Notes: generated by a model not told the origin, from the letters alone. A DNA stretch of 51,643 bases from Escherichia phage egaa (NC_049852.1); one strand, 5' to 3'; positions 30,012 to 34,467 are shown, counted from the first letter of the stretch. A program made the numbers and translations.

Positions 30012-30368
30012 TTATTGCATTGATGTAAATTGCTCAGTAAATGTTGCTTTCACTTCCTGAACGGTTGCTGATATTGGAGTTAATCCAACGCTACCAGATT
30101 TTACCCTGAATAGACCAGGTTGACCGTCAGGCATAAACCATAAAAACGGCTTCAGCCTGTGTCCATTCAGGAAGTCAACAACGTCTCTGTAATCCTTGCC
30201 AACATAGACAATGGAAAACTCCCTGCGTACCGTGTTAAACCCTCCTGAAGCAACCTGCGTGTAACCATTACCAAATGAGATTTCCCTGTCGTTATTTGAT
30301 GTGGTCATAGTGCCGCCGCCTCCTTGCGTTTGCGTGCACCATTTGAATTGCTCAAGTTTCACTATCAC
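30012..30368 (-). CDS. minor tail protein (lambda gpM-like)
   Basis: 118 aa; GTG start overlapping tape-measure stop (GTGA); gene order. Confidence 0.65.
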
Positions 30369-33037
30369 CCCCGCTTAGACATAACAAATTCGTAAACTTC
30401 CCCACCCTGCGTACAGGAACGCTTAATCATATCAGTGAAAATCATTTTTACGCCAGTCTCTAACCCCTTCGGATCGTTTCCGTTATTAATATCAACGCTA
30501 ATCCCACCAATATTAAGGTTTGTTGCTCCTGATGAAACGCCGCCGCCAGTGTATGAAGTGCCGCCAACAACGCCGCCATTTGCATAACCGCGCATCATTT
30601 TGTAAAGGTTTCCAACTCCGATCCGCTTCGTGGCCTCCTTCGTCATGACAAACTCGCCTTTATGAACAACACCTGCTGGCTCATACTTCCCGCCGTCGCC
30701 AGTGTATCCACCAGTTGCAAATCCAACATTTTTAAGAAGGCTTCCAATCGTCCAAGTGTCACCGCCAATCGCACCGGATATGGCATTAAAGATAACCATC
30801 TTTGTGATCATCTGGATAATCATTTGGATGATTGACGTTGCGAAGCTCTTAAAGTTTGCCTTGCCTGTTGCAAGGAATGTAGCCATTTGGTTGGTTAGAC
30901 CGTTGAGCGCCTCGCTTGCAATATCTTGCACGTTGCCGTACATATCCATTGCATCTTGTCCGTAAACCTCCCATGCGTTTTTCGCTCCTGCAATCCAGTT
31001 ACTTCTAAGCTGATCTTCAGTGTCGTAATACTCCTTCAGCTTTGCTTCCATCTGCTGATAAATTTCATCGTCGATACTACCGCCGCCAGCAACATAATCA
31101 GTTCGCAACTTCTTCAACTCAAGCTCTCGCTGGATTTGCAGATCTGTAGCTCCAGACTGTCGCAAGTTCATAGCGTCAATAGCATCTGATGTTTGCTGAA
31201 TGAATTTAAGCCCTTCCTGGTATTGCTTGTTCTTTCTTTGTTGTAAAACAATCTGATCGCCTATCTCGGCCTTTTCTTTTGCCATAGCAATAACTGCTTT
31301 TTGCTCGTTTAGTAACGCCTGTTCAGCCTTTGTCAGCTTGCGTTTGCTTTGCGCTTCCTCCAGGATCTGGATCTGCTTTTCAATGCTCCACAAAGATTGC
31401 CTCTGGCGTGAAATAACATCATTTACAGTTCGGTGCTCTTTCAGCGTTTCAAGTTGCGCCTTGAGAACATATAGCTCCTTATCAAGCTGCTCTGTTGGTG
31501 CTTTTACAACTCCACCAACTTTTTCCTTTTGCTGCTGCGCCTTCTTCGCCTCTTCAAGCTCTTTTCGCCTGAACTCCACGTTCTCAGCCGCTCGCTTTTT
31601 CAACTCTTCGTCTGCTGTCCTTGCTACGTTCTTCTGATCCTCTATGGCTTTGTTTAAAGCCTCTTGCGCCGCTCGAACTCTGTTTAAGGAAAGGTTTTCT
31701 CTGTCGATGCGTGCTGCTCGTTCCGCCATATCCTTATTCGCATCTTTTACAATCTTTCCTATATCCTCATAGGTGTTCTTCGCAAATTGCAGCATTGGAT
31801 TCACATAACCAAGCTCTTTCCCCAGCAGCCCGCCGGACGGTGAAGCATAATCACGTTTTGCTTTTAAGACCGCATACCATGAATCGCCAAGCTCAAGAAC
31901 TTTGTTTTTGTGATCAGCAATTTCATTGTTAAGACTTACAAAACTTGATGCGTTTTTGTATTCGTTTACTTTTGCCTTTGCTTCGTCATAGGTAAATCCA
32001 ACATCGACGAGTTTTTGTATAGCCTCGCTTGCTCCATCCTTAGTGCTTATGTAAGCCTTTGCGATATTGTCTGCGCTCTCTCCTGTCTTGTCAGATAGCG
32101 CCTGGATTCCAGTTGCGATCCGCTCTGCAAACTCACCGGAAAGACCTGTTGCATCCTGAACGGTTTTTGTGATCTCCTTCAGTTGTGCGTTGGCTTTGTA
32201 AGCGTTATATGCTGCATACCCAAGAGCACCAGTCAGCGCCGTCATTCCAACACTTAGCGGCGTGACAAATGTCATTAGCGCTTTAAAAGTATTAGCAACA
32301 CCGCCGAATGAGTCCTTGATTTGCCCACCCTGCTGGATTGCGATCATCCATACTGGCATACCTGAAGCAAGAGAAGTAACAACGTCAGTGATCTGCATTG
32401 GCAATTGCGCCATTGCTTGCTTGTACTGCCCCATAGAAACGCCAAGTTTTGAGGCTTGTTTTTCCTGCTCCTTCATTTTTGCAATAAATGGCGCTGCCTC
32501 TGCACTAACTCCAAGTTGTGCGGCTCTCATTTCGACAAGCTCTGATTTTGTTTTTTCCGCTGCGTCAGCTTGCGCCTGCAATGCCGCAATAAACTTTCTT
32601 GCCTCAGACTCTGCCCTTGCCTTGTTTTTTGCTTCCTCAAGCGCCGCGCGGCCTTCTTCAGTTAGCGCCTTTTTAGTTGCGATCAGTTTGTTTTGCTGCG
32701 TCTCAAGAATTGATCCTAACTCAAAGAATGTATCATCCGGCACAATTCCTTTTTTCCAAAGCGCATCAAGCTGTGTTGCTGCCTGGCGCAACTTATCCAT
32801 TTTGCTTGCTGTCGGATCTATTGCCGACTGAATTGCTTTAAATTCTTGCTTCTGCTTTGCCAATTCCTCAGCCAGTTGTTTGGCTCTTTGTCTTGCAACA
32901 ACCTCTGAATCAACAAAACTCTCAACGCTTCCCTTTGCGTCGTCGTTTGCCTTCTTGAATTGCTGCAAAGACTTTACAGCATTGTTGAGTTGAGAAACAT
33001 CAACCCCAAGCGTCAAGCCTGCGTATTGTTCTGACAT
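30365..33037 (-). CDS. tail tape measure protein
   Basis: 890 aa, long Ala/Gln/Lys-rich coiled coils, Gly-rich C-terminus; between G/GT chaperone and M; RBS tGGAGGattaataATG. Confidence 0.9.
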
Positions 33038-33076
33038 TATTAATCCTCCAGGTAATAAAAAAGCGCCCGTAGGCGC

Positions 33077-33397
33077 TTATTTTGAATGCATCATTTCAAG
33101 TGCTTTTTGCTCCATGATTCGCAAGTCGTTTAGCGCCATCTCGCGATCCTCAACCTTGTAAATCTCAAAAAGCATAGGCAAGACATTATAATCAAATCCG
33201 TAAGCGCCACCGCCAGAACATCTCCATTGCGTTTGCATTGCGCAAAATATATCCCATGATTGCATCATGCTTTCATCAAATATAACCTCTGGCGGATCTT
33301 CTCCTTCATAGTCTGCCCTTGTAAGGCCAACGGCCTCAAGCTCTGCATCTGTCGGCGGTTTCTGATAAAACAGGTAAACCGCCCTTTTTAGTTTTTT
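33077..33397 (-). CDS. T-extension of tail assembly chaperone, expressed as G-T fusion by programmed -1 ribosomal frameshift
   Basis: -1 frame is open from slippery heptamer A_AAA_AAC (33391-33397) to stop at 33077 and contains track ORF 33077-33268; G frame stops 1 codon after the heptamer. Confidence 0.75.
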   Translation of the reverse strand, partial: KKLKRAVYLFYQKPPTDAELEAVGLTRADYEGEDPPEVIFDESMMQSWDIFCAMQTQWRCSGGGAYGFDYNVLPMLFEIYKVEDREMALNDLRIMEQKALEMMHSK

Positions 33398-33705
33398 ACT
33401 CGCTGCCCCGCAAGCGCTTTCATGTATGCGCTAGTTAATCCGATTGCTGTTGCTGGGTAGTAATCAAGAAGCTGTTTAATATTTTCTTCGTTAAATTCAT
33501 CATCAAGATTCCAACCGGAAGCAAGGAAGGTGATCATTTCAACATCGCTCATTGGGGTATCTGACGTGTATCGCTCGTGAATCTCACTTGTTTTGCGGTG
33601 GCGAACTGTGAAGATAATTGTTTGATCTTCTCCGTTAGGCATTGCAAATTTTACTGGTAATTTAAAGTCAGGAAGCGGCCCAATCGTCAATTTCATTTTT
33701 GACAT
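33388..33705 (-). CDS. tail assembly chaperone (lambda gpG-like)
   Basis: 105 aa between major tail protein and tape measure; ends ...GQRVKN with slippery site at its last codons; RBS cAAGGAGaaagaaATG. Confidence 0.8.
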   Translation of the reverse strand: MSKMKLTIGPLPDFKLPVKFAMPNGEDQTIIFTVRHRKTSEIHERYTSDTPMSDVEMITFLASGWNLDDEFNEENIKQLLDYYPATAIGLTSAYMKALAGQRVKN

Positions 33706-33718
33706 TTCTTTCTCCTTG

Positions 33719-33775: not shown

Positions 33776-33800
33776 CAAAAAAAGGGGCGCAACGCCCCTT
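33776..33800 (-). terminator. intrinsic terminator after major tail protein gene
   Basis: minus strand ggggcg-ttg-cgcccc followed by TTTTTTTG. Confidence 0.75.
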
Positions 33801-33804
33801 GTGA

Positions 33805-34467
33805 TTATGCTACTTGAGAAGGTAGGAAGGTGAATCGACCTTTCAGTGATACAGACAGGGAAACAGTTTCCATTTCGTTAACTGTGGTCTGTGGGATTTC
33901 GTTAAACGAAAGGACACCAGCCCAGCAACGCATCTCTTTCGCTTTCGGTACATACATGCGAAGCGCTGTCACTTCACCGGATTCGTCTGCTGCACGAAGT
34001 AACGGATAGATCGCGTTATCGTATTCGTGCGCAAAAGTGTATGTCAGAGAAACGGCGCTCTTATAGGTAGGTAACTGCTGTTCCTGGTCGTCTGCCAAAC
34101 ACTGATAAGTATAGTACTGCTGTTCGCCGCCGTCCTGCGACAAATCTTGAACGCAAGGGATCTCAGTCCATGCATCAATTTTGGCAAAAGATGCAGTACC
34201 GCCAGACGGGAAAACGTTCTGATCAGTAGTATCTACACCTTCAAGAGTCACGCTTGTTTCTTCACCGTTAGCCTTTACACGCATAACACGATCAATCAGC
34301 TTGCCCCAAGAAGACGCAGTGATGATCACATAATCACCTTTCTTATACGCAGTGCCGCCAGATGCAACAGTGAAAACAGGATCTTTGGCGTTTGACACTG
34401 CTGTTGCTTGGATTTCGCCGCCTCGATTGCTCTCAACGAAAATTTGAGATCCATTTGGTAAATGCAT
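33805..34467 (-). CDS. major tail (tube) protein
   Basis: 220 aa directly upstream of G/GT chaperone pair; strong terminator downstream; RBS cAAAGGAGtaaaaattATG. Confidence 0.75.
   Translation of the reverse strand: MHLPNGSQIFVESNRGGEIQATAVSNAKDPVFTVASGGTAYKKGDYVIITASSWGKLIDRVMRVKANGEETSVTLEGVDTTDQNVFPSGGTASFAKIDAWTEIPCVQDLSQDGGEQQYYTYQCLADDQEQQLPTYKSAVSLTYTFAHEYDNAIYPLLRAADESGEVTALRMYVPKAKEMRCWAGVLSFNEIPQTTVNEMETVSLSVSLKGRFTFLPSQVA

What the first reader, a model, noticed from the sequence alone, without database searches (positions are those of the whole stretch)
33077..33705. Programmed -1 frameshift in the tail assembly chaperone (G/GT) missed by the ORF track
The G gene ends ...GTA AAA AAC TAA. 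The heptamer A_AAA_AAC (33391-33397, minus strand) is a classical slippery site, and the -1 frame is open from there to the stop at 33077, encompassing track ORF 33077-33268, which has no plausible independent start. This matches the conserved G/GT arrangement upstream of tape-measure genes.
Basis: partly seen in the sequence, partly recalled or inferred. Interest (0 to 1): 0.5.

Follow-up and report, generated by a model that had tools for sequence, protein, structure and literature searches.

The report
Tail chaperone G/GT frameshift, T1-like phage

Summary
On the minus strand, gene G (33705-33388, 105 aa, Pfam Phage_TAC_4) ends GTA AAA AAC TAA. The heptamer A_AAA_AAC lies at 33397-33391. 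The -1 frame is open from 33430 to the stop at 33079-33077 and has no ATG/GTG/TTG before 33268.

The window is a Hanrivervirus-type member of Drexlerviridae (T1-like). G sits between the tail tube gene and the tape measure gene.

The -1 segment carries a DUF1799 domain. It shows protein-coding substitution periodicity upstream of its first ATG, and that ATG has no Shine-Dalgarno sequence and is not conserved.

Across 185 related loci, 14 of 18 protein clusters end G with A_AAA_AAC or G_GGA_AAC directly followed by a stop, with T in the -1 frame. The three silent positions of the heptamer are the only invariant third positions in the last 40 G codons.

A hairpin 7 nt downstream (-15.1 kcal/mol, z -4.3) is partly conserved.

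GenBank already annotates the joined product in phages Sazh and Solomon, and several papers mention it. Reporter data for this heptamer in E. coli suggest that GT makes up about 1% of the product or less.

The finding is correct, already known, and of low interest.

The parts
33388..33705 (-). Gene G, the short tail assembly (tape measure) chaperone: 105 aa, ATG 33705, stop TAA 33390-33388
   Evidence: ORF. Pfam Phage_TAC_4 E 1.8e-31 over the full length. 68 homologue clusters are all 103-105 aa. The AF2 model (pLDDT 86.8) matches annotated tape measure chaperones in BFVD with TM up to 0.92.
33712..33717 (-). Shine-Dalgarno sequence AAGGAG of G, which serves both G and GT
   Evidence: Read from the sequence. 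Anti-SD duplex -8.5 kcal/mol ending 5 nt from the ATG.
33391..33397 (-). Slippery heptamer A_AAA_AAC, made of the last two sense codons of G plus the preceding A
   Evidence: Identical in all T1-like relatives examined, and replaced by G_GGA_AAC in Vibrio and Ralstonia phage relatives. Its three silent positions are the only invariant third positions in the last 40 G codons.
33388..33390 (-). 0-frame stop codon TAA directly after the heptamer. In the -1 frame its first two bases, with the C of the heptamer (33391), form the invariant Leu codon CTA (33391-33389).
   Evidence: A stop abuts the heptamer in 14 of 18 T-protein clusters, as TAA, TAG or TGA.
33077..33391 (-). T segment read in the -1 frame: 104 codons plus stop TAA 33079-33077. 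It consists of a linker of about 40 residues and a DUF1799 core.
   Evidence: Pfam DUF1799 E 6.8e-13, T residues 22-101. Coding periodicity in the -1 frame upstream of ATG 33268. AF2 gives a core at residues 40-104 with pLDDT above 90 and a less confident N-terminal 40 residues. The fold matches the C-terminal halves of annotated frameshift products of Solomon and Scapp.
33077..33705 (-). Predicted GT fusion coding region: complement(join(33391..33705, 33077..33391)), 209 aa, junction ...GQRVKN-LKRAVY...
   Evidence: Built. Matches phrog_17368 over 1-208 of 209 residues, E 9.7e-102. tblastn finds the two halves in two frames in 1075 phage records.
33354..33383 (-). Candidate stimulatory stem-loop GGCGGUUU / AAACCGCC: 8 bp, 14-nt loop, starting 7 nt after the heptamer
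   Evidence: MFE -15.1 kcal/mol, z -4.28, 0 of 200 shuffles as stable. In-register pairing in 72.5 % of cells across 71 sequences against 30-55 % for slid controls, and 5 of 8 pairs with changes on both sides. It is lost in some close relatives.
33782..33800 (-). Terminator-like hairpin plus T-run between the tail tube gene and G
   Evidence: Terminators are annotated at the same place in T1, G29-2 and Sazh.
33061..33078 (-). Terminator-like hairpin plus T-run overlapping the T stop codon, upstream of the tape measure gene
   Evidence: Annotated at the same place in T1, G29-2, Sazh and Solomon.
33805..34467 (-). Tail tube (major tail) protein gene, upstream neighbour
   Evidence: Pfam Phage_tail_3 E 2.5e-64.
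30365..33037 (-). Tape measure protein gene, downstream neighbour
   Evidence: Pfam TMP_2 E 5e-35 and Tape_meas_lam_C E 7e-22.

Best explanation
G/GT is a two-product tail assembly chaperone gene of a T1-like siphophage, expressed by programmed -1 ribosomal frameshifting.

All ribosomes start at ATG 33705. Most of them stop at TAA 33390-33388 and release the 105-aa G protein. A small fraction slip back one base on A_AAA_AAC (33397-33391): tRNA-Lys moves from AAA to AAA and tRNA-Asn from AAC to AAA. These ribosomes then read CTA (Leu) and continue for 104 codons to TAA 33079-33077, giving a 209-aa GT protein with the junction ...VKN-LKR....

The low-efficiency heptamer is probably helped by the adjacent stop codon and by a hairpin 7 nt downstream. 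Together they would set a low GT:G ratio. From E. coli reporter data for this heptamer, GT would be about 1 % of the product or less.

By analogy with lambda gpG/gpGT (inferred, not shown here), the shared G part coats the tape measure protein, and the T part (linker plus DUF1799 core) recruits the tail tube protein so that the tube polymerises around the tape measure. Neither protein ends up in the virion.
For: Shown here:
- The exact anatomy.
- Synteny of tail tube, G, T and tape measure.
- Phage_TAC_4 plus DUF1799 domains, and an end-to-end match of the fusion to phrog_17368.
- No start codon in the -1 frame before 33268, and no Shine-Dalgarno sequence there. That ATG is absent from Solomon, PTXU06 and other relatives.
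- Gene callers give T homologues lengths of 63 to 136 aa with at least 8 different starts, whereas G homologues are always 103-105 aa.
- Coding periodicity in the -1 frame begins right after the heptamer.
- The silent positions of the heptamer are invariant, while neighbouring third positions have entropy 1.2-1.9.
- 14 of 18 T-protein clusters (70 % identity) carry A_AAA_AAC or G_GGA_AAC followed by a stop. G_GGA_AAC keeps the tandem re-pairing logic without a homopolymer run, which favours ribosomal over transcriptional slippage.
- Hairpin statistics.

From the literature:
- A_AAA_AAC and G_GGA_AAC give 0.163/0.189/0.739 % and 0.164/0.222/0.888 % -1 frameshifting in E. coli (no stimulator / IS911 stimulators / IS3 pseudoknot) against 0.046 % background. 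A_AAA_AAC is the proven IS1 site (PMC4066793).
- The lambda G:GT mechanism and its 30:1 ratio (PMC5009743).
- The frameshift is annotated or described for the T1-like phages Sazh, Solomon, Stevie and U136B, and proposed for Rogue1.
Against: - No direct protein evidence for GT in this phage or, as far as I found, in any Drexlerviridae member.
- The heptamer is a poor shifter in E. coli reporters, so the yield might be very low.
- The hairpin is removed by three synonymous changes in close relatives (L012-14, L017) and is absent in AN_ECEAS, so it is not essential.
- Most Webervirus relatives have lost the heptamer (GCA AAA GTY TAA) yet keep the -1 ORF. The exact heptamer is therefore not indispensable in every lineage.
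- There is no detectable sequence similarity to lambda G or T (hhalign probability below 1 %). The functional roles of the G and T parts rest on synteny and analogy.
- The AF2 core of T starts near residue 40, so a 63-aa product starting at ATG 33268 could in principle fold.
Confidence: 0.9

Rival explanations
1. T is an independent small gene. Ribosomes initiate at ATG 33268 and make a 63-aa protein, as annotated in Henu8, JLBYU09 and KarlJaspers, and no fusion is made.
For: An ATG exists at 33268 and several GenBank records annotate this ORF. The confident AF2 core of T spans residues 40-104, almost the same as the 63-aa product.
Against: - No Shine-Dalgarno sequence: -2.7 kcal/mol at 15 nt, which is background.
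- The ATG is not conserved. Solomon has DEETAQSW and PTXU06 has WPDNAKIV at that place.
- The 41 codons upstream of it evolve as coding sequence in the -1 frame and are part of the Pfam DUF1799 match.
- Independent initiation does not explain the invariant silent positions of the heptamer.
Confidence: 0.04
2. The frame change is made by transcriptional slippage. RNA polymerase adds one A in the A6 run, and the edited mRNA encodes the fusion ...VKK-LKR....
For: The site contains a run of six A. Homopolymer runs are known slippage sites, as discussed in PMC4066793 and PMC5009743.
Against: From general knowledge, six A is shorter than the runs that give appreciable RNA polymerase slippage in E. 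coli. Orthologous sites in the Vibrio, Ralstonia and other clusters are G_GGA_AAC, with only three A but the same tandem tRNA re-pairing property. The register of the run relative to the G frame is conserved, which matters for ribosomes and not for RNA polymerase.
Confidence: 0.04
3. The frameshift is coupled to termination. The slip happens with the heptamer in the ribosomal E and P sites while the stop codon waits in the A site, with slow termination acting as the pause. This differs from canonical P/A-site tandem slippage, but the product is the same.
For: The stop codon abuts the heptamer in 14 of 18 clusters while its identity varies among TAA, TAG and TGA. The heptamer is a weak shifter in standard reporters that lack an adjacent stop. 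The C of AAC is invariant although it is silent in both frames and U is about as efficient in reporters. This hints at a context effect not captured by the canonical model.
Against: No experiment supports it. A 7-nt spacer to the hairpin fits the canonical P/A geometry. A stop close to the shift site also follows simply from selection to keep G short. One relative (L124) has the heptamer followed by TCA.
Confidence: 0.2

Closest known systems
Annotated 'tape measure chaperone frameshift product' of T1-like phages: Citrobacter phage Sazh MH729819 (Tlsvirus), Klebsiella phage Solomon MT701592 (Webervirus). Also described for Stevie and U136B and proposed for Rogue1.
   Same: These are orthologous genes in the same family (Drexlerviridae). 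They share the same AAAAAAC TAA junction, the same -1 relation, the same flanking terminators, and a product of 210 aa against 209 aa here. The T part is 88 % identical to Sazh.
   Different: Nothing of substance differs. The only difference is that the records of this window's own genus that were checked (Henu8, JLBYU09, KarlJaspers, G29-2) and T1 RefSeq do not annotate the join.
Phage lambda gpG / gpGT (slip site G_GGA_AAG; Levin 1993; Xu, Hendrix and Duda 2004, 2013, 2014)
   Same: The position between the tail tube and tape measure genes is the same. So are the two products from one start by -1 frameshifting near the end of G, and the low abundance of the long form (PMC5009743).
   Different: There is no detectable sequence similarity to lambda G or T, and the Pfam families differ (Phage_TAC_4 and DUF1799). 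The heptamer ends in C, not G, and is 5- to 50-fold less efficient than G_GGA_AAG once stimulators are present in E. coli reporters. The stop codon abuts the heptamer here. In lambda, the annotated T frame begins 19 nt before the end of G.
IS1 insA-insB' frameshift (A_AAA_AAC)
   Same: It uses the same heptamer in the same host, where it is a proven low-level -1 frameshift (PMC4066793).
   Different: The proteins and purpose are unrelated (a transposase). No stimulator is established for IS1, whereas a hairpin 7 nt downstream is predicted here.

Membership tests
G/GT-type tail assembly chaperone with programmed -1 frameshift (Xu, Hendrix and Duda 2004 definition) | The gene pair lies between the major tail (tube) gene and the tape measure gene | tested here: met
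   Phage_tail_3 at 34467-33805, and TMP_2 plus Tape_meas_lam_C at 33037-30365.
G/GT-type tail assembly chaperone with programmed -1 frameshift (Xu, Hendrix and Duda 2004 definition) | The second ORF overlaps the end of the first in the -1 frame and lacks its own translation start | tested here: met
   The -1 frame is open 33430-33077. The first start codon is at 33268, with background-level Shine-Dalgarno pairing, and is not conserved.
G/GT-type tail assembly chaperone with programmed -1 frameshift (Xu, Hendrix and Duda 2004 definition) | A slippery X_XXY_YYZ sequence lies in the overlap and is conserved among relatives | tested here: met
   A_AAA_AAC at 33397-33391. The heptamer is A_AAA_AAC or G_GGA_AAC in 14 of 18 clusters, and its silent positions are invariant.
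G/GT-type tail assembly chaperone with programmed -1 frameshift (Xu, Hendrix and Duda 2004 definition) | A fusion protein is made at a low, fixed ratio to G and is needed for tail assembly | not testable with these tools
   This needs mass spectrometry, western blots or genetics. Only reporter values for the bare heptamer are available.
Pfam Phage_TAC_4 (PF08748) + DUF1799 (PF08809) chaperone family of T1-like and related siphophages | The profile matches exceed the curated cut-offs | tested here: met
   109.3 bits against a cut-off of 21.1, and 49.1 bits against a cut-off of 26. The predicted folds match annotated tape measure chaperones.
Lambda gpG / gpT protein families (sequence homology) | Detectable sequence or profile similarity to lambda G and T | tested here: not met
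   hhalign probability is 0.1 % and 0.3 %. No lambda-type Pfam family appears among the hits at E below 0.1. The protein works like lambda G/GT but is not a sequence-family member.
-1 PRF sites with a 3' stimulatory RNA structure | A stable stem-loop or pseudoknot lies 5-9 nt downstream and is maintained by covariation | tested here: inconclusive
   There is a hairpin at a 7-nt spacing with z -4.3. In-register pairing and double changes exceed the controls. However, the hairpin is lost in some close relatives. The second stem of a possible pseudoknot pairs in only 60 % of cells.

The most novel reading that the evidence does not exclude
The family-wide rule 'low-efficiency X_XXA_AAC heptamer, stop codon immediately after it, stem starting 7 nt downstream' may reflect a termination-coupled variant of -1 frameshifting. 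In this reading the slip happens with the stop codon in the A site, and it sets a GT:G ratio far below lambda's 1:30. The invariant C, which is silent in both frames, would be a context determinant that reporter studies have not captured.
Probability: 0.15. Interest if true: 0.4.

Novelty: already known. Interest (0 to 1): 0.15.

Why it matters
The main value is correct annotation. The 209-aa GT product should be annotated as complement(join(33391..33705,33077..33391)), in place of a free-standing 63-aa ORF.

Most records of this genus, and T1 RefSeq itself, omit the join. Missing chaperone frameshifts are a recognised, common annotation gap (PMC10885494).

There are two lesser points. First, the comparative table built here shows that a whole chaperone family uses the two weakest A_AAC-type heptamers, always next to the stop codon. 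A frameshifting laboratory could test this cheaply. Second, tail assembly chaperones are now known targets of bacterial Avs17 immune sensors, which bind the N-terminal core shared by both isoforms (PMC13581612).

Tried and rejected
- The first protein search, using the whole fusion as query, returned only 3 hits, all to the T part. Separate searches with G and T worked.
It was replaced by three single-protein scans.
- A MAFFT alignment of the fusion with both the G and T homologue sets put the T homologues on top of G. It was discarded, and G and T were modelled separately.
- A Foldseek search of the G model against the PDB found nothing (best E 1.2). A profile search of the PDB found nothing either.
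- Lambda G and T show no profile similarity.
- A possible second pseudoknot stem (33373-33369 with 33353-33349) pairs in only 60 % of cells, and its third-codon-position partner varies freely. It is not claimed.
- An upstream Shine-Dalgarno-like stimulator (GGGG at 33409-33406, 8 nt before the heptamer) was considered. It is not claimed, because the G-run comes from a conserved Gly codon and is absent in several relatives.
- The count of the heptamer in the window equals chance, so it was not used as evidence.
- Xu et al. 2004 is not held in the library. Whether T1 is in their table was therefore not checked.

Full report
**What is in the sequence**

The minus strand of 33900-32900 shows, in order:
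- the end of an upstream gene;
- a GC-rich hairpin followed by a T-run;
- a strong ribosome binding site, AAGGAG (33717-33712);
- ATG 33705;
- an ORF of 105 codons that ends CGA GTA AAA AAC TAA.

AAC is 33393-33391, TAA is 33390-33388, and the heptamer A_AAA_AAC is 33397-33391 in the X_XXY_YYZ register.

The -1 frame is open from 33430 (upstream stop TAG 33433-33431) down to TAA 33079-33077, a run of 118 codons. The ORF list shows that the first ATG/GTG/TTG in that frame is ATG 33268. The 'track ORF' 33077-33268 is therefore only the last 63 codons of the open frame. Joining the frames at the heptamer gives a 209-aa protein with the junction ...GQRVKN-LKRAVY....

**What the window is**

The 1-kb region is 98-99 % identical to Escherichia phages Henu8, damhaus, haarsle, Shigella phage pSf-1 and others. 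These belong to the genus Hanrivervirus, subfamily Tempevirinae, family Drexlerviridae, which are the T1-like siphophages.

Pfam places the neighbours as follows:
- tail terminator, 34871-34473;
- tail tube protein, 34467-33805 (Phage_tail_3, E 2.5e-64);
- tape measure protein, 33037-30365 (TMP_2 and Tape_meas_lam_C);
- a gpM-like minor tail protein, 30368-30012.

G itself is Phage_TAC_4 (E 1.8e-31, full length), and the -1 segment is DUF1799 (E 6.8e-13, T residues 22-101). The conceptual fusion matches one PHROG profile, phrog_17368, over residues 1-208 of 209 (E 9.7e-102). Full-length fusions are therefore already present among annotated phage proteins.

**Is it more than chance?**

The heptamer alone is not informative. 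AAAAAAC occurs 22 times in the window against 22.2 expected.

An open stretch of 104 codons after the shift has P of about 0.006 at the window's stop-triplet frequency. However, in a tightly packed phage genome an open frame after a stop is often simply the next gene. The case therefore rests on three other observations.

1. There is no usable start.
   - ATG 33268 pairs with the anti-Shine-Dalgarno sequence at only -2.7 kcal/mol, 15 nt away. The background mean is -3.1.
   - G, the tape measure gene and the tail tube gene score -8.5, -9.3 and -8.2 at 5-7 nt.
   - The ATG is not conserved in relatives such as Solomon or PTXU06.
   - Gene callers give T homologues lengths from 63 to 136 aa with at least eight different start points, whereas all 68 G homologue clusters are 103-105 aa.
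2. The stretch between the heptamer and ATG 33268 evolves as coding sequence in the -1 frame.
   - In 40 unique T1-like sequences, column entropy by -1-frame codon position is 0.38/0.24/1.07.
   - This matches the 0.40/0.19/1.00 seen after the ATG.
3. The heptamer is under selection at the nucleotide level.
   - Among the last 40 G codons, the only invariant third positions are the three inside the heptamer. The other 37 have entropy 0.4-2.0, and those within 15 codons of the site have 1.2-1.9.
   - The final C is silent in both frames (AAC/AAU Asn; CUR/UUR Leu) and is still invariant.

**Breadth of conservation**

I collected 190 sequences: loci from GenBank and IMG/VR plus the window itself. 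185 of them were tabulated for junction architecture.

When the T proteins are clustered at 70 % identity, 14 of 18 clusters end G with A_AAA_AAC or G_GGA_AAC immediately followed by a stop (TAA, TAG or TGA), with T in the -1 frame.
- A_AAA_AAC clusters include the T1-like phages, Dhillonvirus, the PHB10 group and several metagenomic clusters.
- G_GGA_AAC clusters include Vibrio phage Marilyn, Ralstonia phage Dina and others.

The codon before the heptamer changes (GTA, GCA, GAA, ACA, AGA) but always ends in A.

The G_GGA_AAC variant keeps the tandem re-pairing property without a homopolymer run. That argues for ribosomal rather than transcriptional slippage.

There are four kinds of exception:
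- most Webervirus loci (GCA AAA GTY TAA; only an A_AAA tetramer is left);
- a nine-member metagenomic cluster;
- two singletons;
- two contigs with five A instead of six (L040 and L041). These also have other frame breaks and are probably sequencing errors.

**How it probably works**

The best-supported mechanism is canonical -1 tandem slippage of tRNA-Lys and tRNA-Asn on A_AAA_AAC, after which CTA (Leu) is read.

Sharma et al. 2014 (PMC4066793) measured all 64 heptamers in E. coli. The values are % -1 frameshifting without stimulator, with the IS911 stimulators, and with the IS3 pseudoknot:

| Heptamer | No stimulator | IS911 stimulators | IS3 pseudoknot |
|---|---|---|---|
| AAAAAAC | 0.163 | 0.189 | 0.739 |
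| GGGAAAC | 0.164 | 0.222 | 0.888 |
| GGGAAAG (lambda) | 0.277 | 3.80 | 43.0 |

The no-motif background is 0.046 %. The authors call A_AAA_AAC and G_GGA_AAC low-efficiency motifs that are nevertheless used by IS elements, with IS1 as the proven case.

This chaperone family therefore uses exactly the two weak, near-equivalent A_AAC heptamers. I infer a GT share of about 1 % of the product or less, below lambda's roughly 1:30 (PMC5009743), unless the native context raises it.

Two context elements are candidates:
- The stop codon directly abuts the site.
- A hairpin GGCGGUUU/AAACCGCC (33383-33354) starts 7 nt after the heptamer. Its MFE is -15.1 kcal/mol, z is -4.28, and 0 of 200 shuffles fold as well.

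Evidence on the hairpin is mixed:
- In an ungapped 52-column alignment of 71 distinct sequences from all clades, the same register is paired in 72.5 % of cells against 30-55 % for slid controls.
- In that alignment, 5 of 8 pairs show changes on both sides, for example U-A to C-G or G-C between the T1-like and Dhillonvirus clades.
- Against this, three synonymous changes destroy the hairpin in the close relatives L012-14 and L017, and AN_ECEAS lacks it. It is at most a modulator.

A second, pseudoknot-forming stem is not supported (60 % paired). Kropinski et al. 2012 mentioned a downstream pseudoknot for the T1-like phage Rogue1 (PMC3496638).

**Function of the two products (inferred)**

No sequence similarity to lambda G or T is detectable (hhalign probability below 1 %), and no solved structure is related.

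AlphaFold models give the following:
- G has pLDDT 86.8 and folds as a small alpha/beta domain. It matches annotated tape measure chaperones in BFVD: Ec_L1 at TM 0.92; the 210-aa Solomon frameshift product; and Serratia phage Scapp in both its short and its 236-aa long form.
- T has pLDDT 81. The first 40 residues or so are less confident and look like a linker. This is partly because few database sequences cover them. The core at residues 40-104 is confident.
- T matches the C-terminal halves of the Solomon and Scapp long forms.

The roles assigned here rest on the lambda model and on synteny, not on data from this phage. In that model the G part binds the tape measure protein and the T part recruits the tail tube protein.

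**Comparison with what is known**

The orthologous frameshift is annotated as a joined CDS, 'tape measure chaperone frameshift product', in Citrobacter phage Sazh (Tlsvirus, same subfamily) and Klebsiella phage Solomon. Both have the identical AAAAAAC TAA junction.

It is also mentioned in the genome papers of:
- U136B (PMC8104045);
- Solomon (PMC8407766).

In contrast, T1 RefSeq, Henu8, JLBYU09, KarlJaspers (Bas06) and G29-2 annotate two separate genes or miss T. In G29-2 an AGG-to-ATG change three codons after the slip site gave the annotators a start. Missing chaperone joins are a recognised annotation problem (PMC10885494).

**Verdict**

It is an instance of an already known and already annotated recoding event in T1-like phages, so interest is low.

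Four small points remain open:
- the invariant C, which is silent in both frames;
- the obligatory adjacency of the stop codon;
- the loss of the heptamer in most Webervirus loci;
- the facultative hairpin.

Together they leave room for a termination-coupled variant of the mechanism. I rate that at about 15 %.

Noticed in passing
window 33782-33800 (-) and 33061-33078 (-): The G/T unit is bracketed by two intrinsic-terminator-like hairpins with T-runs. One follows the tail tube gene. The other overlaps the T stop codon, just before the tape measure gene. The same two terminators are annotated in T1, G29-2 and Sazh. They may tune the ratio of tube, chaperone and tape measure transcripts.
   Followed up: partly
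L051, L054-L091 (Webervirus, Klebsiella phages), junction about 7 nt before the T match start: 39 of 42 Webervirus loci have GCA AAA GTY (or GCC) TAA instead of GCA AAA AAC TAA. The canonical heptamer is gone and only an A_AAA tetramer remains. The -1 T ORF nevertheless stays intact and is 91-94 % identical to that of Solomon, which keeps the heptamer. How these phages reach the T frame is unclear.
   Followed up: partly
window 33391 (C of AAC), and the same position in 133 related loci: This base is silent in both reading frames (Asn in G, Leu in T). It is invariant in every locus that carries the heptamer, although published E. coli reporter values for AAAAAAU and AAAAAAC are similar.
   Followed up: partly
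L040 (IMGVR_UViG_2974632794_000001) and L041 (IMGVR_UViG_2706796530_000001; its 41,085-bp contig has the same length as the Salmonella phage 36 record, NC_029071), about 1495-1501: Both contigs have five A instead of six at the slip site, which would put T in the +1 frame. Both also show further breaks in the T ORF, and Salmonella phage 36 has fragmentary 57- and 60-aa ORFs in BFVD. Homopolymer sequencing errors are the likely cause.
   Followed up: partly
L002 (Escherichia phage G29-2) 2016-2018, equivalent to window 33385-33383: A single AGG-to-ATG change three codons after the slip site creates an in-frame ATG. The annotators used it as the start of a 102-aa 'T' gene. This shows how start calls in this ORF follow chance substitutions.
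   Followed up: yes
window 32550-32556 and 32624-32630 (-), inside the tape measure gene: Two further AAAAAAC heptamers lie within the tape measure ORF. Their reading-frame register and any -1 ORF were not examined. The total number in the window equals the chance expectation.
   Followed up: no
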